A stretch of 64,000 nt of DNA from an uncultured Actinomycetota bacterium (GTDB lineage Bacteria > Actinomycetota > Thermoleophilia > RBG-16-64-13), in contig CAWDOM010000013.1 of the NCBI GenBank assembly GCA_963803925.1, positions 3,065 through 67,064 on the forward strand, read 5' to 3'. Both the position numbers and the translations under genes were made by a program. The notes beneath the pieces were generated by a model, which made no database searches, was not told the origin of the DNA, and saw only the letters and a program-made list of their open reading frames with translations. Shown in pieces: positions 1-9,557 of this stretch. Every line of letters starts with the position of its first letter. The stretch's first letter is position 1.

Positions 1-973
1 TCTGGAAACAGTTTCTCCAGCCATTGCCCGAGGTAGAGGTATCGCAACCATCTGCCGCGCTTGGGAGTGGAATATAGTCGGCACTTATTGATACGCCGCT
101 AAAATTGCTGCCATTGGCGTGCAGCCGGACATAGTAGGTGGCTGCAGTCGGATTTGCGATTGTACTTGTTTCGTTATTGGTGCCTGAGGTGCGAACACGG
201 TAGTCGTAGGTCCCCGTGGTCGGCGCACTGTTTCGTCTTATATACAAATCGGCACTGGTACCGGTGCCGCCTGAACTTCGGATTGTCAGGCTACTCAGGC
301 CCGCCGGAACATCGATCGTATAGCTCCCGGTCAGATTTCCGTTGGTAATCGACCCGGTAGGATTTGGTGTGCCGGTAATTGCAAGTGACGTCGCGGGCGG
401 AGCCACATATGCCCACGTACTCGGACCGTATTACGCGACCATCGGTCAGTATCTGGTAACGCCAATAATTGGTTGGCTCATTCAGATAGGTAAGCGTGCT
501 ATTTGTGAGGTTTTTCGGCACATAATAGGTTTGAACAGAACTGCTTAAGTTGATGGTTCCACTTGCCATTGAAGCCAAAGTAGAGGCTCGAGTAGGCTGC
601 ATTGTAGGTTACATCTGCTACATAGTTGCCGGTGCCTAAATAATCACTCCAGGGGGTATAGGTAGTGGCGGGATTGTAATAGATGCCGTTGCGCGCATAG
701 GTTTGCTGGCCAATATTCGGAGCATTGGTCGTCGGCGCGGTGTCGCTGGTGGCCTCGGGCGCTGCCATGAAAGTGCTTCGGCATGGAACCCGAGTCATCC
801 AGGATGAACATGATGTTCGGCGGTATCGTCGAGCTCGATTGCAGCGGCGAGTCTGGAATGGATATGCCTGAAATTGCAGGGGATGCGATAAGCACTGCAA
901 TAAAACCAAGGGCGCTGGCACTGAGTGTGCGCCTGGCAAAGGCATAAGGATTGGTTTTTGAACTTGTTTTCAT
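1..973 (-). pseudogene. pilY1: PilY1-like type IV pilus tip/adhesin protein, N-terminal ~320 codons (continues past window start); frame broken at least 3 times
   Basis: The track ORF at 644-973 gives a signal peptide plus PPNIMFILDDSGSM (PilY1/vWA MIDAS-like DxSxS). The reading continues in other frames (499-945, 291-602, then a fourth frame to position 1). The last segment encodes a PPC-like motif, SGGTGTSADLYIRRNSAPTTGTYDY...ATYYVRL. Confidence 0.55.
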
Positions 974-1543
974 GACATTCCCCTAGTTAGGGCTTGGTGA
1001 AATTGGATTGAATGATTACCGTTGCACGGTTCGCTTGTGTACTGCGTGTAGTAATTCGGTAAACCTTGACCATGACTGGCGGATCGCCATCCAGGACGCC
1101 GATGGTCGTTATGGACTTTGGTGTTTGCACCCATGTACTCGATCATGTACTGGGGTACTGCGGTCAGACCATCTTGGTCTACATCTGTGGTGGCCATCGC
1201 CCAAGGACACCCCGCAGTGGGGGATTACAGCGTTTTCCCAACGATTGGCGCCGCACTAGCGACTGGTTGTGGGCACAGGCCGGCCGCACATGCAGCACCG
1301 CAGTGCCGGAAATGTCGGTGTCGGATTCGCTGCAAGAATTGCTTCGGCATCACGCATGGCGGCTTCTGCCGCCTGAAAACTCAGGCTGCGATCAAATTGG
1401 CCGGCGCCCATTTTTTCCTGCATCAATGCTGCCCGCATGCTGGCCAAGCCTAGCAAGGTCATGATCAAAAGCAGAATAAGGATGATGGTGAGTGAGACAC
1501 CACGTTGTCGGCGGACGCCATGCTTCGTTTGGTAGGCCATCAT
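970..1543 (-). pseudogene. pilX: PilX-like minor pilin, frameshifted
   Basis: The N-terminus QRGVSLTIILILLLIMTLLGLASMRAALMQEKM is the PilX_N pattern (ORF 1256-1543). The C-terminal part lies in a different frame (ORF 970-1197). The total span is about 191 codons, as expected for PilX. Confidence 0.55.
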
Positions 1544-2581
1544 AAGTTGCGATTCCGTAAAGTGACGGTGCTGGAAATTTGGCGCTGGATTTGATTGCCA
1601 TCGGTGCCGATATTTTCTTCGCCACGTAAAAACAGGGTGACGCGCACAGCGTTAACTGCGGTCCAATCAGTGACTAAATTCGCCGTCCTGTAGCTTGTCG
1701 CACCTGAAACCAGGTACGTAATAGTCATGTTTTCTACGCCTTTGGCAATTTCCTGATTTTGACTGGTGACGGCACCGGCAGTATTCGACATGGTGCTTTG
1801 AAAAAGTGAACGTCCACCATCCGGGTCGTTACTGGTTCCGATATACCAACGCACGGCACGAAGTTTCGCCAGCGTTGCGTGAGGGTCCGGATTGGTTTCG
1901 CTGACAGCCATAAAATCATAGTCGGCCCCGTACCGCACGCGCCACTGGTCAAGCCCAAATTAGTGTTGCAATTGCCGGGAGTTCCGCCGGCGGCAGTAAG
2001 TGACCGTTGTTGGAACAGTAGTAGGTACGCTATTTAATTGAAAAATGGCAGCCTGCGTGTAATTGCATGCGACCACGATATCGCCATTGGCCAAATCAGT
2101 CGCAACGGTATTATTCAAGGTAAACGAATCAGAGGCTGCATTATGGGTATTCACGCTGTAGCCGCTGTTACTTGCCGACATCAGCAAGATGGCATCTGTA
2201 CCCGTGAGCCGGGCACCTGCAGCGGTGCCAAAGGCCGCATCGGGAAATGGAGTGGTACTAGAAAAACCCTGGACACCGCCATTGCGGTCCAGGCGGTCCA
2301 CCACGTTGTTGTACCCGAATTGATCACATTGGCAACTAAAGTGCGTTTGCACAAGGAGACGCGGCTGCCTCGCGAATATCGCGGGATAATAATTCAAACG
2401 ATGTCCGCATATTTTCCTGAATCCGCCCGACATTCTCCGATGCTACGGAGGTTTGACGATTCGAAAGAAAAATCGCGATGGCACTACCCACGACCAATAA
2501 ACCGATAAGAATCGAAACCATCAACTCGATTAAGCTCATGCCGCGTGTGGCGGCAGTAAACGCTGAAGCGCGATATTTCAT
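1540..2581 (-). pseudogene. pilW: PilW-like minor pilin, disrupted (frame switch ~2400; in-frame TAA at 1960-1962 or paired indels)
   Basis: The prepilin N-terminus is TRGMSLIELMVSILIGLLVV (ORF 2336-2581). The middle part is ORF 1960-2433 and the C-terminal part is ORF 1540-1938. Operon order matches fimU-pilVWXY1. Confidence 0.6.
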
Positions 2582-3034
2582 ATTCTGCTCCGGGTAATGG
2601 TTGTTTGTGCAGAAGACCCGCCACTACCGCGACTATCGTCCCATTCGACAGTAATCGTGCACACATTCGATGCACAAGTGATTGTACCGCAGGCAGCGAC
2701 ACCAATCGTTCCCTGAAGATTGGCCATCCAGGCATTCAAATCGTTTTCGTGCCAGAGTCGTGCCGACAGCAGGCACCGTGCACGTACGTGTCATGTTGTA
2801 GTCATTAGCTCTGGCGGCAATCAGATTGGCACGCATGGAATCCAGAATGCTGTAGGTATGCATGACCGCCTGGCTGCGCTCCATCGAACTTTGACCGTTA
2901 CGAAGCGTAATAGCCTGCATTGAGGCAATCCCCAGCAAACCGATACCCAATATCAACACCGAAATAAGCACTTCAATCAAACTGGTCCCGGTTTGATGTG
3001 CCTGTCGTGCAGCTCGCATTTTCGATTTTTTCAT
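2578..3034 (-). pseudogene. pilV: PilV-like minor pilin, single frameshift near 2755
   Basis: The N-terminus is QTGTSLIEVLISVLILGIGLLG (type IV pilin methylation motif). The track ORF ends in Cys/Arg-rich junk. Hand translation of the alternate frame gives WHENDLNAWMANLQGTIGVAACGTITCASNVCTITVEWDD, ending in a TGA that overlaps the pilW ATG. Confidence 0.65.
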
Positions 3035-3076
3035 GGCTAATTCTTCAAAGACAAATATGGAAATGCAGATACCGTT

Positions 3077-3683
3077 TTAATTTGATGGCGCAGTACAGCT
3101 CGCAGTGGCATTACGTCTGTCAATGCGCAAACTTCCGCCACCCGTGGTAAATGTAACGTCACGTGCGTTTTGCGGAGGCGTAGTCGTGGCAACACAAAGC
3201 GAGACCTTGCCGAGCAGCAAATTGCCCCCGGTGGTTCTTGCCATCCCGTCTGGCCTGAAAACAACGGCCGCATCCACATTGCTGCTCGCGGTTGCCGTTA
3301 CACCGCTCAAAGGATTAACGGAGAGCAAAGTATCGCCATCAGAAGTTGCAAAAGTGTTGTTTCGGTTCGCGTCAACGAAAACTAGCCAGCCACTCCAGCT
3401 AGTCCCTGCGCTGCAAGTCGGCGTCGCCGCGGCGGCATTGGCACTTCCGCACACGACAACTCTTGCGCCGCGCCGGATTGATTCAAGTCGTGCAAGCTGA
3501 AAATTGGCCAGTAATTCATTCGCCTGACTTGTGACGCGATTACTGTTCAAGAATGAAGTGAACGGACGGAACAGCCAAGGCAAGTAAAATCGCTGCGATG
3601 GCGATAGTGATCATCAATTCGACCATCGAAAAACCACGTTCTGCCAAGGGCTTGCTGTACGGCGCAGCCAATTTTCGTTGCAT
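3077..3683 (-). pseudogene. fimU: GspH/FimT-FimU family minor pilin, one extra base near 3570
   Basis: Hand translation from ATG 3683 gives MQRKLAAPYSKPLAERGFSMVELMITIAIAAILLALAVPS, then a stop. The +1 frame continues FTSFLNSNRVTSQANELLANFQLARLESIRRG (ORF 3077-3583). It sits immediately upstream of pilV. Confidence 0.6.
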
Positions 3684-3872
3684 ATGAGCCCCCAAAGCCT
3701 CTCTTTAATATGAAGGGAGTGTATTTTGACTTCTGTGGAATCGCCAGCTAAGACCGACTAACGGGGCAAAAAAAGGCCTTAGTGGTCACTAAAGTATCCC
3801 GTGACGAGGCCGCTCTGGATTCCAAAGGGCAAAAACGGGCAAGATGTCACACCACATCGAGTTATAAACCGA

Positions 3873-4892
3873 ATGTCCCGCAGCAGCTTACCTGATCAAC
3901 CGATTGATATCCTATGGCGAACCGTCACACTGGTTTCGATGGTGCTGGCCGGCGAAGGCCTGGCCCTGGTCATGTCATTGACGCCGGGTTTCAGTACCGA
4001 CCGATGGGTATATTTCGGGCTCAGCTCGCTACTCATACAATGGATATTGCTACTTACGCTCGGCAGCCTTCATCTGATAAAGGATCGCATTGCCAAATAT
4101 TCGGTGAGTACACTTTCCTGGATCGGCCTGGCACTTTTGGTATTAAGCACCTGGTTGGTTTGCGGCACATGCTGGTACGTATACCAACGGGTTTCACATT
4201 TGAGTTATGCCAGCGGTTTTTACTTCCTGTTTCAATGCACTGCCATTGCCATCACTATCGGCGTGCTGGGCTTGATCGCGCTGCAGCACCACTGGCGTAC
4301 GCATCAATTGGCACTCGCCAATAAACAGGCAGAACTTGATGCACTCCAGGCCAGGATTCAACCGCATTTCCTGTTCAACACTCTCAACACTTGCGCTGCA
4401 CTTGTTCACCAGAATCCCGAACAAGCCGAAGATCTTTTACTGGATTTGAGTGAGTTATTTCGCGCTGCCTTGTCGGAATCCAAATTGATCAGTCTAGATG
4501 ACGAGCTTACACTTGCTCGTCGTTACCTAGAGATTGAAGCACTTCGATTCGGAGATCGCATAAAAATAACCTGGCAATTACCGGACACGATTCCTGCCGT
4601 CGTATTGCCTGCTCTTTCAATACAACCGCTGGTGGAAAATGCTGTCCGGCATGGCATTGAACCAGCCGAGAATGGCGGCGACATTGAAATCCATGTGCGA
4701 GAAGAAAACAATGCTCTATTGATTATCGTCAGCAATTCGCTTCCAAAGACGACGAGCAATATCAGAAAGGGGCATCATATTGGCCTGGCCAGCACTCGTG
4801 AACGCATCGAGAACTATAGCGACGGCAAGGGTCAGGTCTCGACTGCAATAAAAAATGGCCGCTTTGAAGCGACCATTTCATTGCCTTCCTAG
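3873..4892 (+). CDS. algZ: LytS/AlgZ(FimS)-type sensor histidine kinase (His_kinase + HATPase_c_5), intact, with no adjacent LytTR response regulator
   Basis: Four or more TM helices are followed by ARIQPHFLFNTLNTCAALV (H-box) and QPLVENAVRHGI (N-box). ATG 3873 is preferred over the tracked GTG 3801. It is divergent from the pilin operon. Confidence 0.75.
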   Translation: MSRSSLPDQPIDILWRTVTLVSMVLAGEGLALVMSLTPGFSTDRWVYFGLSSLLIQWILLLTLGSLHLIKDRIAKYSVSTLSWIGLALLVLSTWLVCGTCWYVYQRVSHLSYASGFYFLFQCTAIAITIGVLGLIALQHHWRTHQLALANKQAELDALQARIQPHFLFNTLNTCAALVHQNPEQAEDLLLDLSELFRAALSESKLISLDDELTLARRYLEIEALRFGDRIKITWQLPDTIPAVVLPALSIQPLVENAVRHGIEPAENGGDIEIHVREENNALLIIVSNSLPKTTSNIRKGHHIGLASTRERIENYSDGKGQVSTAIKNGRFEATISLPS

Positions 4893-4899
4893 CTTTTGG

Positions 4900-5710
4900 C
4901 TAGACACTTACAACCCGATAGCACGGTTTGTATTCACCGCTCATCTTCATTCGCCGCTGGGCAACGAATGCCTGCAACAAGCCGTCGAGTGCTTTCATGA
5001 TGTCAAGATCGCCATCAATCTGGAATGGTCCGTGCTGCTCGATATTTCGCATGCCGTCTTCCTTTACATTGCCGGCAACGATTCCGGAAAATGCACGCCG
5101 CAAATCAGCCGCCAGCAAATGCACGGGTTGTTCGTGATGCAGATTCAGGCCAGCCATTGCCGCATGATCCGGCACAAAGGGCTGCTGGAATTCAAACGGA
5201 ATGTGCAATGACCAGTTGAAGAAGAAAGCATCTTTTTCCGCGATACGCTGCTCGCGCACTTTCTTCATGCCCAGAGCCATTTGTCTTGCGACCTCGGATG
5301 GATTATCGACAATTATCTTGTAACGCGAGGTGGCTACTTCGCCCAGGCTCAAGCGCAGAAATTGATCGATCTGCTCGAAATATGCCGCCGATGATTTGGG
5401 TCCGGTAAAGATGAGCGGGAACTGCATATCCACATTGTCCGGATGCAACAGAATACCGAGCAGATAGAGAATCTCTTCCGCCGTGCCGACACCGCCGGGA
5501 AACACGATGATGCCGTGGCCGACACGGACAAACGCTTCAAGACGTTTTTCGATATCGGGCATGATCACGAGATGGTTCACGATCGGGTTCGGTGACTCGG
5601 CCGCAATAATTCCCGGCTCGGTTATACCGATGTAGCGATTATTGGTTCTGCGCTGTTTTGCATGTGCAATGGTGGCGCCTTTCATAGGACCTTTCATCGC
5701 ACCCGGTGGC
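4900..5710 (-). CDS. ppnN: PpnN/YgdH-type LOG-family nucleotide 5'-monophosphate nucleosidase, C-terminal ~270 aa only (5' end cut at the junction)
   Basis: Motifs present: [67 protein letters not shown] and PCYRVV. The full-length family is ~450 aa. The first ~18 tracked codons are read-through into high-GC DNA. Confidence 0.75.
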
Positions 5711-5735
5711 ATCGGCGAACTGTGCCGGCACGGCT
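5700..5735. other. Composition and synteny breakpoint (contig join or chimera)
   Basis: ppnN homology (minus strand) stops at ~5709 and fabD homology (plus strand) starts at ~5711. Both genes are truncated. GC jumps from the high 40s to the mid or high 60s percent (by eye). Confidence 0.7.
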
Positions 5736-6517
5736 CGATGGAGCAACTGACGCGCACCGATCGCACTCAGCTCACGATCCTCACCTGCAGCGTGGCGGCT
5801 TGGAGGGTGCTCGAGCAGAACGGCGCCACGTTCACTGTGGCCGCCGGCCACTCGCTCGGCGAATACTCCGCTCTCGTGGCGAGTGGGCGCATGACCTTTG
5901 CCGACGCACTCCGCGTGGTCGACGTGCGCGGCCGGGGCATGCAGGCCTGCGGTGAGGAGAAGGGCGGCACCATGGCGGCGATCATCGGCCTGGACGATTC
6001 GGCGGTCGAGGAGATCTGCTTGTCGCTCTCCGAGGTCTGGGTCGCCAACTACAACTCGCCAGGCCAAATAGTGATCTCCGGCTCGGTGGAGTCAGTCGGC
6101 GCAGCCGGCGACCTCGCCAAAGAGGCCGGCGCCGCCCGTGTTCTGCCGCTGCCGGTTTCCGGAGCCTTTCACACCCCCTTCATCGAAGGCGCGGCGGTGG
6201 CCCTTCAGAAGGCGCTGGCCGACGTGACCTTCTCGCCCGGAACCGGCAAGTTCCTGTCGACGACCGAGGTGCGTTACCCCGAGCCCGGCGAGATGGCGAA
6301 AGTGCTTGCCGATCAGCTCATGTCGCCCGTTAGGTTCGCGCAGAGCATGCAGAAGATCATCGGCTCTCCCCAAGCCCCGCTGTCGGGCTTCGAGGTGGGG
6401 CCCGGCAACGTGCTGAGCGGGCTGATGAAGCGTATCGACCGTGAGTTCCCGATGGTCTCCAGCGGCGACGCAACCACTCTGCGGGCGGCGCTCGACCTGA
6501 TCGGAGGCGCGCGATGA
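5711..6517 (+). CDS. fabD: Malonyl-CoA:ACP transacylase, lacking ~50 N-terminal residues
   Basis: [14 protein letters not shown] (active-site Ser), [10 protein letters not shown] and VSGAFHTP are present. The N-terminal GQGSQ region is missing. The stop overlaps the fabG ATG (ATGA). Confidence 0.85.
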
Positions 6518-7269
6518 GCGGCGCGCCCGCGGCGTTCGAGGGACAGGTCGCCCTCATCACTGGAGGCGCCAGGGGTATCGGGCGGGCCATCGCAACCAGG
6601 CTGGCGAGCGATGGGGCGAAGGTCGCCATCGTCGACATGGCGGAGACCGGGGCCGAGACGGCGCGCGAGATCGAGCACGCGAGCGGACGCCAGGCGGCCT
6701 TCGTCAAGGCGAACATCTCCGACGAAGCCGACGTGAAGAGGGCTGTCGCCGAAGTCGAAGCTGTTCTTGGCCCGATCGACATCCTCGTCAACAACGCGGG
6801 CATCACCCGCGACAACTTGATGCTTGTCATGAGCGAGGCCGACTGGGACGCGGTGCTCACCGTGAACTTGAAGGGAGCCTTTCTTGTGAGCAAGGCGGTG
6901 CTCCGCGGCATGATCAGGCGGCGCCGGGGCTCCATCGTCAGCATCTCTAGCGTTGTCGGCCGGCGGGGCAACGCTGGGCAGGCCAACTACTCGGCCGCCA
7001 AGGCCGGTCTCATAGGGCTCACAAAGTCCCTCGCACGCGAAGTGGCCTCGCGTAACATCAGGGTCAACGCGGTGGCTCCGGGATACATCGAGACCGACAT
7101 GACTGCTGCACTCGGCGAGCAGGCGCGCAAGGCCTTGGTCGACGCGATCCCGCTGGGACGTATCGGGAGCCCCGACACAGTGGCCGACGCGGTTGCGTTC
7201 TTGGCTGGGGATTCTGCTTCATTCATAACCGGAGTGGTACTTCCGGTCGATGGTGGTCTTGGTATATAG
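6514..7269 (+). CDS. fabG: 3-oxoacyl-ACP reductase (SDR)
   Basis: TGGARGIGRAIA, NNAG and the YSAAKAG catalytic motif are present, in a fab operon context. Confidence 0.85.
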   Translation: MSGAPAAFEGQVALITGGARGIGRAIATRLASDGAKVAIVDMAETGAETAREIEHASGRQAAFVKANISDEADVKRAVAEVEAVLGPIDILVNNAGITRDNLMLVMSEADWDAVLTVNLKGAFLVSKAVLRGMIRRRRGSIVSISSVVGRRGNAGQANYSAAKAGLIGLTKSLAREVASRNIRVNAVAPGYIETDMTAALGEQARKALVDAIPLGRIGSPDTVADAVAFLAGDSASFITGVVLPVDGGLGI

Positions 7270-7429
7270 GAGGCTGCAGAACAATGAAACCACGGCTCTC
7301 AGGACACGCTGGCCGGCACGACCGCGCGTCCTCGGTCGCGCAACTAGCGCTGCTGTCAGCGCTTTCTGCGTCCTTCTCTCTCGCGCGGCGATCGTGCCCG
7401 GAGCGCGAGGCGTCATTTTCCGCAGCCTC
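7270..7429 (+). repeat. 160-nt intercistronic element A, bounded by terminal inverted repeats (MITE-like or structured RNA)
   Basis: The left end is GAGGCTGCAGAACAATGA. The reverse complement of the right end is GAGGCTGCGGAAAATGA. The element starts right after the fabG TAG and is followed by TAG. It is homologous to element B at 28321-28480. Confidence 0.55.
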
Positions 7430-7441
7430 TAGCAGAAGGAG

Positions 7442-8716
7442 ATGTCGGTAGCTATGAGCGGTGCACCGAGGACAATCGAGCTGAAACGGGTGGTGGTCAC
7501 CGGTATCGGCGTCGTTTCGCCCATCGGTATCGGCAAGGAGGCCTTTCTCGAGGCGCTTCTCGCGGGCAAGTCGGGCGTCAGGAAAGTGGGACGTTTCGAC
7601 ACGACGGACTATCCGGTCAAGATCGCGGCCGATGTCAAGGATTTCGATCCGTTGACCTATATCGACAAGAAGTGGAGCAAGCGGATGGACCGCTACGCGC
7701 AGTATGGCGCGGGCGCCGCCCGGATTGCGCTCGAGGATTCGGGCTATCCGGTCGAAGAAGACCCGTTCGCCGTCGGGGCGCTCATCGGCTCGGGGGTCGG
7801 CGGCCTCGACACGTTCTATGAGCAGATCACTGTGCTTTTGGAAAAAGGCCCGGCGCGGGTGAGCCCGTTCTTCATACCCATGATGATTCCAAACATGGCT
7901 TCGGCCTGCGCTTCGATCATCTTGGGGCTGCAGGGGCCAGTCAGCGCGACGTGCACCGCCTGCGCCGCCGGCACAAATGCGCTGGGCGACGCTTTCAACA
8001 TCGTGCGCAGGGGTGAGGCGACGGCCATGCTGGCGGGCGGCGCCGAGGCGGCCGCCAACCAGGTGGGGCTGTCTGCCTTCGCGGCGCTGCGGGCGCTCTC
8101 CTCGCGCAACGACGACCCCGAGCGGGCAAGCCGGCCGTTCGACGCCGGCCGCGACGGGTTCGTCATCGGTGAGGGCGGGGGAGTGCTCGTCCTCGAGGAA
8201 CTGGAGCATGCTCTGGCCCGCGGGGCCCACATATACGCCGAGTTCGTAGGTTACGGCATGACCGGCGACGCCTCACATCTCACCGAGCCGGTCGAGACGG
8301 GCGAGCCCGCCGGGCTGGCCATCACCAAAGCGCTCCGCGATGCGCGCCTCGAGCCCACCGACGTCGACTACATCAACGCCCACGGCACGTCGACCCCACT
8401 CGGCGACGCCATGGAGACCAACGCGATCAAGCGCGCGCTTGGCGACCACGCCTACAAAGTGATGATAAGCTCCAACAAGAGCATGTTCGGGCACTGCCTG
8501 GGCGCCGCGGGGGCGCTCGAAGCGGCGGCTACGATCCTGTGCATGCAGGTGGGAATGGTGGCTCCTACTATCAATCAGGAGGAGCGTGATCCGGCATGCG
8601 ATCTGGACTATGTGCCGAATGTGGCCCGGAAGGCGGAAGTCAATGTCGCTGTGTCCAACAGCTTCGGGTTCGGTGGGCACAACGCCTCTATAGCATTGCG
8701 CAGGTGGCATGGCTAA
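7442..8716 (+). CDS. fabF: Beta-ketoacyl-ACP synthase II
   Basis: Active-site ATCTACAAG (Cys), HGTSTP and NSFGFGGHN are present. An AAGGAG Shine-Dalgarno (SD) sequence lies upstream. Confidence 0.9.
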   Translation: MSVAMSGAPRTIELKRVVVTGIGVVSPIGIGKEAFLEALLAGKSGVRKVGRFDTTDYPVKIAADVKDFDPLTYIDKKWSKRMDRYAQYGAGAARIALEDSGYPVEEDPFAVGALIGSGVGGLDTFYEQITVLLEKGPARVSPFFIPMMIPNMASACASIILGLQGPVSATCTACAAGTNALGDAFNIVRRGEATAMLAGGAEAAANQVGLSAFAALRALSSRNDDPERASRPFDAGRDGFVIGEGGGVLVLEELEHALARGAHIYAEFVGYGMTGDASHLTEPVETGEPAGLAITKALRDARLEPTDVDYINAHGTSTPLGDAMETNAIKRALGDHAYKVMISSNKSMFGHCLGAAGALEAAATILCMQVGMVAPTINQEERDPACDLDYVPNVARKAEVNVAVSNSFGFGGHNASIALRRWHG

Positions 8717-9557
8717 GTACGTAACAATCCAAGTAGCGCGCAAAGAGCCGCCGCCCGAGCCGCCGGCGGCCGGCGAGCGTTGTAAGAACTGCAATACCGC
8801 CTTGCAGGAGGGCGAACTCGAGAGGCACCTGCGCGTCTGCCCGCACTGCTCGTTCCACTATCCGATGCCCTCGCATGAGCGGGTGGCGCTACTTGCCGAC
8901 AAGGGCACCGTCAGCTTTGTCGGCGAGGACGTGCGCGCCGTCGATCCCCTCGAGTTCATCGATCTACGGCCCTACCCCGATCGGTTGGCCGAGGCTCAGC
9001 GGGGCACCGGTCTTAGCGAGTCGTTTCTCGCCGCCACCTGCAAGATCTCGGGCAATCCCGCTGCTATCGGCGTGCTCGACTTCAAGTTCCTCGGGGGCTC
9101 GATGGGTTCCGTGGTCGGTGAGCGGTTCTATAGGCTCTCCCGGGCGGCCCTCGAGGCGAATGCACCGCTCATCGTAGTGGCCGGCTCGGGTGGCGCGCGC
9201 ATGCAAGAAGGCCTGTTCTCGCTCATGCAGATGGCCAAGACAGTGGTCTCGGTGCAGGCGCTCAGCAAGGCCGGCCTGCCGTACATCACTATCCTCACTC
9301 ATCCCACGACGGGGGGCGTCTTCGCGAGTTTCGCGACTGTCGCCGACGTGATCCTGGCGGAACCCGGAGCGGTCATGAGTTTCGCGGGAGCCCGCATCAT
9401 CGAGCAGACCACCCGCGAGAAGCTGCCTCCGGGCTTCGGCTCGTCGGAGTCGCAACTGGCCCACGGCCAGGTCGACATGGTGGTCGACCGGAGAGAGATG
9501 AAGGAGCGCTTGATTCGAGTGCTCTCGTTCCTCATGGGAGGTGGGAGCATTGGCTGA
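8709..9557 (+). CDS. accD: Acetyl-CoA carboxylase carboxyltransferase beta subunit
   Basis: N-terminal Zn ribbon CKNCNT...CPHCSFH, then the GGSMG carboxyltransferase motif. Confidence 0.9.
   Translation: MAKYVTIQVARKEPPPEPPAAGERCKNCNTALQEGELERHLRVCPHCSFHYPMPSHERVALLADKGTVSFVGEDVRAVDPLEFIDLRPYPDRLAEAQRGTGLSESFLAATCKISGNPAAIGVLDFKFLGGSMGSVVGERFYRLSRAALEANAPLIVVAGSGGARMQEGLFSLMQMAKTVVSVQALSKAGLPYITILTHPTTGGVFASFATVADVILAEPGAVMSFAGARIIEQTTREKLPPGFGSSESQLAHGQVDMVVDRREMKERLIRVLSFLMGGGSIG

What the first reader, a model, noticed from the sequence alone, without database searches (positions are those of the whole stretch)
5690..5740. Razor-sharp junction truncating two convergent-looking genes at a GC step: contig join or chimera
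PpnN homology on the minus strand (..[12 protein letters not shown]..) ends at ~5709. FabD homology on the plus strand (..[16 protein letters not shown]..) begins at ~5711. ppnN lacks its N-terminal ~180 codons and fabD lacks ~50. GC rises from about 48% to the mid or high 60s (spot counts of single lines). Gene content switches from gammaproteobacterial type IV pilus genes to actinobacterial-style genes. No IS element, integrase, tRNA or repeat sits at the boundary. The simplest reading is an artificial join (concatenated contigs of a bin, or a misassembly). Nothing should be inferred from linkage across it.
Basis: seen in the sequence. Interest (0 to 1): 0.6.

Follow-up and report, generated by a model that had tools for sequence, protein, structure and literature searches.

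The report
Assembly chimera: foreign tail on actinobacterial contig
The sharp break at window base ~5708 is an assembly error: 8.8 kb of DNA from a Lysobacterales-like bacterium was stuck onto a contig of an uncultured actinobacterium in the middle of its fabD gene, and the missing start of fabD lies at the very end of another contig of the same assembly.

Summary
GC content steps from 0.51 to 0.66 at window 5707-5710 (contig C13 ~8771-8774). On the minus strand a ppnN gene stops at profile position 184 of 450. On the plus strand fabD starts at profile position 44 of 290. No tRNA, RNA family, repeat, integrase or run of N lies there.

The join lies inside one deposited contig, so it did not come from how the window was built.

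- **Left side:** collinear with Lysobacterales chromosomes (PpnN 79-82% identical), and its pilus genes carry many frameshifts.
- **Right side:** the host genome. All same-genus genomes searched have fabD, and the two I read upstream carry fabH-fabD-fabG-fabF.
- **Decisive result:** contig C12 ends exactly at the break. It carries fabH and fabD codons 1-43. Joining rc(C12) to C13 from base 8778 gives a 310-residue FabD that aligns without gaps to public relatives of 310 residues.
- **Second case:** the end of C8 and an internal junction in C9 split mihF the same way, again next to a tail that looks gammaproteobacterial.

The shared sequence at the join is only 4 nt, so no shared k-mer explains it. 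This fits a chimeric read or a mis-resolved fork in a long-read assembly graph.

Verdict: artefact, about 0.93. Nothing should be inferred from linkage across this point.

The parts
1..5706 (.). Foreign tail, about 52% GC. It starts at C13:1, which is 3064 nt before the window. It is a chromosomal fragment of a Lysobacterales-like gammaproteobacterium.
   Evidence: GC profile and change point. Tetranucleotide outlier, z = 15. Same genes in the same order as Lysobacterales loci: ppnN, convergent histidine kinase, fimU, pilV, pilW, pilY1.
2..3583 (-). Type IV minor-pilin operon fimU(GspH-like)-pilV-pilW-pilX-pilY1. Every gene is broken across reading frames.
   Evidence: Pfam hits GspH, N_methyl, PilW, PilX_N and PPC on separate short ORFs. 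blastx against Lysobacterales homologues switches frame repeatedly within pilY1, pilW, pilV and fimU.
3801..4892 (+). Intact LytS/AlgZ(FimS)-type sensor histidine kinase belonging to the foreign tail.
   Evidence: Pfam His_kinase PF06580 plus HATPase. 43-47% identical to the kinase that lies convergent to ppnN in Lysobacterales loci.
4900..5706 (-). 3' fragment of ppnN (nucleotide 5'-monophosphate nucleosidase), lacking about 183 N-terminal profile positions.
   Evidence: NF038390 positions 184-450 of 450, 464 bits. 79-82% identical to Arenimonas and Silanimonas PpnN. No other ppnN piece in the genome. No PpnN above cut-off in 40 relatives.
5707..5709 (.). Junction: 3 nt (tgg) that match neither parent.
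   Evidence: Codon-level comparison with a Lysobacterales PpnN and with the true fabD 5' end on C12.
5710..6517 (+). 3' fragment of fabD (malonyl-CoA:ACP transacylase), lacking codons 1-43. Its first 4 nt (CATC) duplicate the last 4 nt of rc(C12).
   Evidence: TIGR00128 positions 44-288 of 290. rc(C12[1-129]) plus C13[8778..] gives a 310-aa FabD that aligns without gaps to relatives of 310 aa.
6514..8716 (+). Native fabG and fabF, the continuation of the host fab operon.
   Evidence: Pfam adh_short_C2 and ketoacyl-synt. Same order, fabH-fabD-fabG-fabF, in the two same-genus loci read in full.

Best explanation
The junction is an inter-genome misassembly, a chimeric contig. It is not a feature of any organism's genome.

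In the true actinobacterial genome, fabH-fabD-fabG-fabF is continuous: the reverse complement of contig C12 runs straight into C13 at base ~8775.

During assembly, 8.77 kb from a low-abundance, Lysobacterales-like gammaproteobacterium became attached at that point. The cause was most likely one or a few chimeric long reads, or a chimeric draft path. This made a three-way fork in the assembly graph. The assembler wrote out the foreign arm together with the right arm as C13, and left the true left arm as a separate contig (C12) that stops exactly at the fork.

Shown here:
- the break and the two truncated genes;
- the different origin of the two sides;
- the exact complementarity of C12 and C13;
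- a second instance of the same pattern (C8 and C9).

Inferred, not shown:
- that the data were long reads;
- that the cause was a chimeric read or a mis-resolved graph fork;
- that the foreign tail had low coverage.
For: 1. The window is C13:3065-67064 of a 14-contig, 3.29-Mb assembly. The join is internal to that contig and the contig has no N.
2. GC steps from 0.51 to 0.66 within tens of bases. The left tail is the top tetranucleotide outlier of 368 windows (z = 15). C12 and the native part of C13 correlate at r = 0.99, whereas the tail and native C13 correlate at r = 0.40.
3. The left side is collinear with Lysobacterales chromosomes, with PpnN 79-82% identical to Arenimonas, Silanimonas and Aquimonas. 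PpnN above cut-off occurs in none of 40 genomes of the host's genus, family and class.
4. All 12 same-genus genomes searched have a fabD match. Ten have an uninterrupted open frame of 314-363 aa; two long-read-like assemblies have it broken by stops. fabH lies directly upstream in the two loci I read. G000 has a single fabD match, the truncated one.
5. C12 begins, on its minus strand, with fabD codons 1-43 preceded by fabH and the next upstream gene. rc(C12) ends ...GGTTGGGACATC, and C13:8774-8777 is CATC. The join gives a 310-aa FabD reading [12 protein letters not shown], as in relatives. It aligns over all 310 columns without a gap to public FabD proteins of exactly 310 aa, 87-75% identical.
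6. The same pattern occurs a second time. C9 has a ~3.2-kb, 53%-GC tail carrying guaB and a frameshifted guaA, with tetranucleotide r = 0.82 to the C13 tail. It is joined inside the actinobacterial mihF gene. The missing mihF 5' end is the last ~70 nt of C8, with an overlap of TCCGTAG(A/G)GCC.
7. The foreign tail has many frame disruptions in its pilus genes, consistent with a poorly supported consensus.
8. There are no mobile-element signatures.
9. Multi-phylum chimeric contigs marked by GC and taxonomy shifts are documented for metaFlye, metaMDBG and hifiasm-meta (10.1101/2025.04.22.649783).
Against:
- No independent assembly of either parent was found. Exact 41-47-mers from each flank are absent from the JGI metagenome contigs, and exact-protein look-ups found nothing.
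- The sequencing platform and the assembler are unknown.
- The two genes nearest the junction on the foreign side, the kinase and the ppnN fragment, are free of frameshifts, so the tail is not uniformly error-ridden.
- A population variant with a real insertion would also produce a graph fork at this spot.
Confidence: 0.93

Rival explanations
1. Real, very recent capture of Lysobacterales chromosomal DNA into fabD of the actinobacterium by illegitimate, homology-free recombination. It would be present in all or part of the population.
For: The join is in a deposited contig with no N. It has 0-4 nt of homology and 3 filler bases, which end-joining could also produce. The frameshifted pilus genes could be read as decay of useless foreign DNA.
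Against: - fabD is the only copy in the genome, and the break removes the N-terminal FPGQGSQ segment, which is conserved in every relative aligned. From general knowledge, fabD is essential.
- C12 stops exactly at the break and carries no foreign DNA, so the intact arrangement is what the second contig encodes.
- The same structure recurs at mihF, split between C8 and C9. At least three further foreign-looking pieces of other GC contents occur elsewhere in the assembly.
- There is no integrase, tRNA or repeat.
Confidence: 0.03
2. A k-mer-mediated chimera from a de Bruijn graph (short-read) assembler: the two genomes share a stretch at least as long as the k-mer, and the assembler crossed over there.
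For: This is the commonest cause of inter-species chimeras in short-read MAGs (abstract of 10.64898/2026.10.15.759294).
Against: - The two parents share at most 4 nt at the join, and 3 nt match neither parent.
- C12 and C13 overlap by 4 nt, not by k-1.
- Fourteen contigs of up to 452 kb and indel-type gene breaks such as fabH on C12 point to long reads.
Confidence: 0.02
3. A join made after assembly. A scaffolding, contig-merging or bin-refinement step glued a separate 8.77-kb foreign contig to the end of a native contig without inserting N.
For: It gives the same end result: an abrupt join with no homology. Foreign pieces lie mostly at contig ends.
Against: It does not by itself explain why the native genome was already broken at exactly this nucleotide, with C12 ending there, nor the same coincidence at C8/C9. 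A fork created by the foreign arm explains both. The internal 5.6-kb low-GC block in C13 is not at an end.
Confidence: 0.02

Closest known systems
Multi-phylum chimeric contigs in long-read metagenome assemblies (bioRxiv 10.1101/2025.04.22.649783, 'Assemblies of long-read metagenomes suffer from diverse errors')
   Same: One contig joins DNA of two phyla. The join is recognisable by a sudden shift in GC and gene-level taxonomy. It occurs in otherwise long, high-quality contigs, and several such errors occur per assembly.
   Different: That paper diagnoses the errors by 100% read clipping, which I could not test. Here the diagnosis rests on finding the true continuation at the end of another contig of the same assembly.
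Inter-species translocation misassembly in de Bruijn graph (short-read) metagenome assemblies and MAGs
   Same: Foreign sequence inside a contig of a MAG that marker-based contamination estimates do not reveal (2.83% here; abstract of 10.64898/2026.10.15.759294).
   Different: Those joins run through a shared k-mer. Here the parents share at most 4 nt.
Genomic island or horizontally acquired DNA at a tRNA or integrase site
   Same: A composition step, and genes that are foreign to the lineage.
   Different: There is no integrase, tRNA or direct repeats. Both junction genes are cut mid-domain. The interrupted gene is the single copy of fabD, and the uninterrupted version can be reconstructed from the same assembly.

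Membership tests
Inter-genome chimeric contig (assembly artefact) | Abrupt change of base and oligonucleotide composition at one point | tested here: met
   GC 0.506 to 0.662 at the change point C13:8761. Tetranucleotide z = 15 against 0.5 for the adjacent windows.
Inter-genome chimeric contig (assembly artefact) | Gene-level taxonomy switches at the same point | tested here: met
   Left side: Lysobacterales, 79-82% PpnN identity and conserved gene order. Right side: host lineage, with the fab operon order seen in same-genus loci and relatives named Actinobacteria or Actinomycetia. PpnN is absent from 40 relatives.
Inter-genome chimeric contig (assembly artefact) | The true continuation of at least one side exists elsewhere in the data | tested here: met
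   C12 position 1 carries fabD codons 1-43 plus fabH. The joined FabD is 310 aa and aligns without gaps to relatives.
Inter-genome chimeric contig (assembly artefact) | Reads are clipped at the junction and coverage differs between the two sides | not testable with these tools
Inter-genome chimeric contig (assembly artefact) | Recurrence of the same error type in the same assembly | tested here: met
   mihF is split between the end of C8 and an internal junction in C9 that carries a foreign guaBA tail. Further foreign-GC pieces occur on C4, C10 and C13:294.6-300.2 kb.
k-mer-mediated de Bruijn graph chimera | A shared exact stretch of at least the k-mer length (about 21 nt or more) at the join | tested here: not met
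   At most 4 nt are shared, and 3 nt match neither parent.
Genomic island or integrative element | Integrase or recombinase gene, tRNA or att-type direct repeats at the boundary | tested here: not met
   No tRNA or Rfam hit in C13:1-9500. Only chance-level repeats. Left-side ORFs are pilins, a kinase and ppnN.
Genomic island or integrative element | The other half of the interrupted target gene flanks the far end of the insert | tested here: not met
   The fabD 5' half is at the end of C12 with no foreign DNA attached. The tail runs to the end of C13.

The most novel reading that the evidence does not exclude
The junction is a real molecule: a cell lineage of an uncultured anaerobic actinobacterium captured at least 8.8 kb of Lysobacterales chromosomal DNA by homology-free end joining, inside its only fabD gene. 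It would have been caught as a minority variant beside the intact allele.
Probability: 0.03. Interest if true: 0.55.

Novelty: not a real feature. Interest (0 to 1): 0.08.

Why it matters
There is no biology in the join itself. It matters for data hygiene.

- **Foreign DNA under the wrong label:** a public genome labelled as one uncultured actinobacterium carries at least 8.8 kb, and probably more than 20 kb over several contigs, of DNA from other bacteria. Marker-based contamination (2.83%) does not reveal this.
- **False annotations:** the ppnN fragment, the type IV pilus genes and the histidine kinase would be wrongly credited to Actinomycetota. fabD and mihF would wrongly be called truncated or missing.
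- **Linkage:** any linkage or horizontal-transfer inference across window ~5708 is invalid.
- **Practical gains:** C12 and C13, and also C8 and C9, can be joined. The check used here, looking for the missing gene half at another contig's end, needs no reads.

Tried and rejected
- **E. coli origin of the left side:** megablast against all complete E. coli genomes gave no match.
- **Exact-protein look-ups:** FabG and the histidine kinase are not on record in other assemblies.
- **Exact DNA scans:** a 41-mer just right of the join and a 47-mer just left of it gave 0 hits in the JGI metagenome contigs. No independent assembly of either parent or of the join was found.
- **Duplicated tails:** I tested whether the foreign tails are repeats duplicated elsewhere in the genome, as an assembler extending contigs into repeats would produce. 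They are not.
- **Low-GC head of C9:** it is simply 23S-5S rRNA, so it is native.
- **pyrF guess:** I guessed that pyrF would be the native neighbour of mihF and would sit at a contig end. It does not. The real neighbour was found through same-genus synteny instead.
- **WhiB as a marker:** WhiB (PF02467) is absent from G000. The phylum label therefore rests on actino_IHF and on the names of FabD relatives.
- **Frameshift context:** the frameshift sites in the tail show no clear homopolymer context, so the error type is undetermined.

Full report
**Where the window lies**

The window is C13:3065-67064 of a 14-contig, 3.29-Mb assembly with 87.8% completeness and 2.83% contamination. The contigs contain no N. 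The finding's junction therefore lies about 8.77 kb inside one deposited contig. It was not made when the window was built.

**Checking the observation**

- GC content is 0.47-0.57 in every 300-nt window up to 5700 and 0.60-0.73 after it, and it stays near 0.65 for the remaining 58 kb. A maximum-likelihood change point falls at C13:8761, with 0.506 on the left and 0.662 on the right.
- The minus-strand ORF 4900-5766 matches PpnN (NF038390) at profile positions 184-450 of 450, at 464 bits.
- The plus-strand ORF 5642-6517 matches FabD (TIGR00128) at positions 44-288 of 290.
- A Silanimonas homologue reads ...[18 protein letters not shown], whereas the window reads ...[16 protein letters not shown]. 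PpnN homology therefore ends at window 5706 or 5707.
- FabD homology starts at 5710 (see the decisive result below). Bases 5707-5709 belong to neither parent.
- C13:1-9500 has no tRNA and no Rfam family.
- The region around the join has only chance-level repeats.
- The left-side ORFs are pilins, a kinase and ppnN, with no integrase or transposase.

The only corrections are that fabD lacks 43 codons, not about 50, and that the left side averages about 52% GC.

**What the two sides are**

*Left side.* The PpnN fragment is 79-82% identical to Arenimonas, Silanimonas and Aquimonas proteins, and all 80 best loci are Lysobacterales or close relatives. The whole 8.77 kb is collinear with those chromosomes: ppnN, a convergent LytS/FimS-type kinase, then fimU-pilV-pilW-(pilX)-pilY1.

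Two features of the tail stand out.

- Its GC of about 52% is well below that of the nine relatives I measured (61-71%).
- Its pilus genes change reading frame many times, while the kinase and the ppnN fragment are intact. This agrees with an earlier first-stage note, e1-2805124.

PpnN above the family cut-off occurs in none of 40 genomes of the host's genus, family and class.

*Right side.* All 12 same-genus genomes searched have a fabD match. Ten have an uninterrupted open frame of 314-363 aa; two have it broken by stops. The two loci I read in full carry fabH-fabD-fabG-fabF.

An actinobacterial-type IHF sits in a mihF-gmk-rpoZ cluster on a native contig. FabD relatives are named Actinobacteria or Actinomycetia by NCBI. 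WhiB, however, was not found.

*Composition.* The tail is the most deviant of 368 equal-sized windows of the genome (robust z = 15), and the next window is typical (z = 0.5).

**The decisive result**

G000 has a single fabD match, the truncated one. Searching the genome with the FabH and FabD N-termini of relatives showed the missing piece. Contig C12 begins, on its minus strand, with fabD codons 1-43, preceded by fabH and the next upstream gene.

The reverse complement of C12 ends ...GGTGCTGGGTTGGGACATC, and C13:8774-8777 is CATC followed by GGCGAACTG... Joining rc(C12) to C13 from base 8778 gives a 310-residue FabD that reads ...[19 protein letters not shown]... across the join.

This protein aligns over all 310 columns without a gap to public FabD proteins of exactly 310 residues that are 87-75% identical. 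Several of them read [12 protein letters not shown] identically. The only 100% match in the 5.8-billion-protein collection is the window's own truncated 259-residue gene call.

C12 and the native part of C13 have the same tetranucleotide usage (r = 0.99), whereas the tail correlates with native C13 at only 0.40.

The true genome is therefore rc(C12) followed by C13 from about 8775. The 8.77-kb tail occupies the place where C12 belongs.

**The same error occurs again**

C9 ends in a ~3.2-kb, 53%-GC tail carrying guaB and a frameshifted guaA. Its tetranucleotide usage resembles the C13 tail (r = 0.82). The tail is joined inside mihF at about C9:190606.

In seven same-genus loci fetched, the gene upstream of mihF corresponds to C8:275835-277037. 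The last ~70 nt of C8 are the missing mihF 5' end, overlapping C9 by TCCGTAG(A/G)GCC. The join restores an intact mIHF.

Twice, then, a native gene is split between the extreme end of one contig and an internal junction in another contig that continues into foreign DNA.

Further pieces with foreign GC and cut or frameshifted genes are:

- the end of C4 (45% GC, with a frameshifted AIR-synthase-type gene);
- the end of C10 (34% GC, with an NhaC fragment);
- C13:294.6-300.2 kb (about 35% GC; a gmd gene lacks its 3' part at the left edge, and the facing native Cthe_2159-domain gene appears to lose its last ~34 profile positions there).

The 23-kb, 50-54%-GC end of C6 carries tRNA genes and is unresolved.

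**Mechanism**

The two parents share at most 4 nt at the join, so crossing over at a shared k-mer is excluded.

Several things point to a long-read overlap-graph or repeat-graph assembly:

- contigs that abut with a 4-11-nt overlap;
- 14 contigs of up to 452 kb;
- indel-type gene breaks, such as fabH on C12.

The inferred sequence of events is as follows. A chimeric read or draft path attached the foreign arm, which created a three-way fork. The assembler then emitted the foreign arm with the right arm as one contig, and ended the true arm at the fork.

Multi-phylum chimeras of this kind, recognisable by GC and taxonomy shifts, are documented for metaFlye, metaMDBG and hifiasm-meta (10.1101/2025.04.22.649783). 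The platform, the assembler and the coverage step are inferred, not shown.

**Rival explanations**

- *Real capture of foreign DNA into fabD.* This would break the only copy of fabD. It does not explain why C12 ends cleanly at the break without any foreign DNA. It would also have to have happened again at mihF. I give it about 3%.
- *De Bruijn graph chimera.* It fails the shared-k-mer test.
- *Gluing after assembly.* It does not explain why the native genome was already broken at exactly these nucleotides.

**What could not be done**

- Neither flank has an exact match in the JGI metagenome contigs.
- Exact-protein look-ups returned nothing.

There is therefore no independent assembly of either parent or of the junction.

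**Verdict**

This is an assembly artefact, with confidence about 0.93 and low interest. Nothing should be inferred from linkage across window ~5708, and the ppnN, pilus and kinase genes should not be attributed to the actinobacterium.

Noticed in passing
G000 C9:190596-193785 and C8:277037-277217 (outside the window): A second chimeric junction of the same kind. A 53%-GC tail with guaB and a frameshifted guaA is joined inside the actinobacterial mihF gene on C9. The missing mihF 5' end is the last ~70 nt of C8 (overlap TCCGTAG(A/G)GCC), so C8 and rc(C9) are true neighbours. The tail's tetranucleotide use resembles the C13 tail (r = 0.82), so both tails may come from the same foreign organism.
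   Followed up: yes
G000 C13:294582-300217 (outside the window): An internal 5.6-kb block of about 35% GC in a 65%-GC contig. At its left edge a gmd gene lacks its 3' part (profile 32-150 of 332), and the facing native Cthe_2159-domain gene appears to lose its last ~34 profile positions. The right edge is not sharp. It is probably another foreign insertion made by the assembler, but a real low-GC glycan island is not excluded.
   Followed up: partly
G000 C4:145901-148459 and C10:402876-403624 (outside the window): Short contig tails of 45% and 34% GC. The C4 tail follows a MalT-like regulator ORF that ends at the GC step and carries a frameshifted AIR-synthase-type gene. The C10 tail is an NhaC-type antiporter fragment starting at profile position 84 of 303.
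   Followed up: partly
G000 C6:145825-168746 (outside the window): A 23-kb contig end at 50-54% GC with tRNA-Arg about 0.8 kb from the GC step and a tRNA-Lys/Leu/Gly cluster. It could be foreign DNA or a real island. No gene is obviously cut at the step.
   Followed up: partly
window 2-3583 (minus strand): In the foreign tail, the minor-pilin genes fimU, pilV, pilW and pilY1 are each split across reading frames, and only the N-terminal domain of pilX was seen. The adjacent kinase and the ppnN fragment are intact. The frameshift sites show no clear homopolymer context. This could be consensus error at low coverage, or real pseudogenes in a Lysobacterales lineage with unusually low GC (52%, against 61-71% in the relatives measured).
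   Followed up: partly
G000 C12:~551-560 (outside the window): The native fabH gene is split into two reading frames near C12:555, about 0.5 kb from the contig end. It looks like an indel error in the consensus.
   Followed up: no
G000, whole genome: A six-frame search finds no WhiB-family gene (PF02467) in this 88%-complete genome, although it has an actinobacterial-type IHF and FabD relatives labelled Actinobacteria. This is unusual for Actinomycetota if it holds.
   Followed up: no
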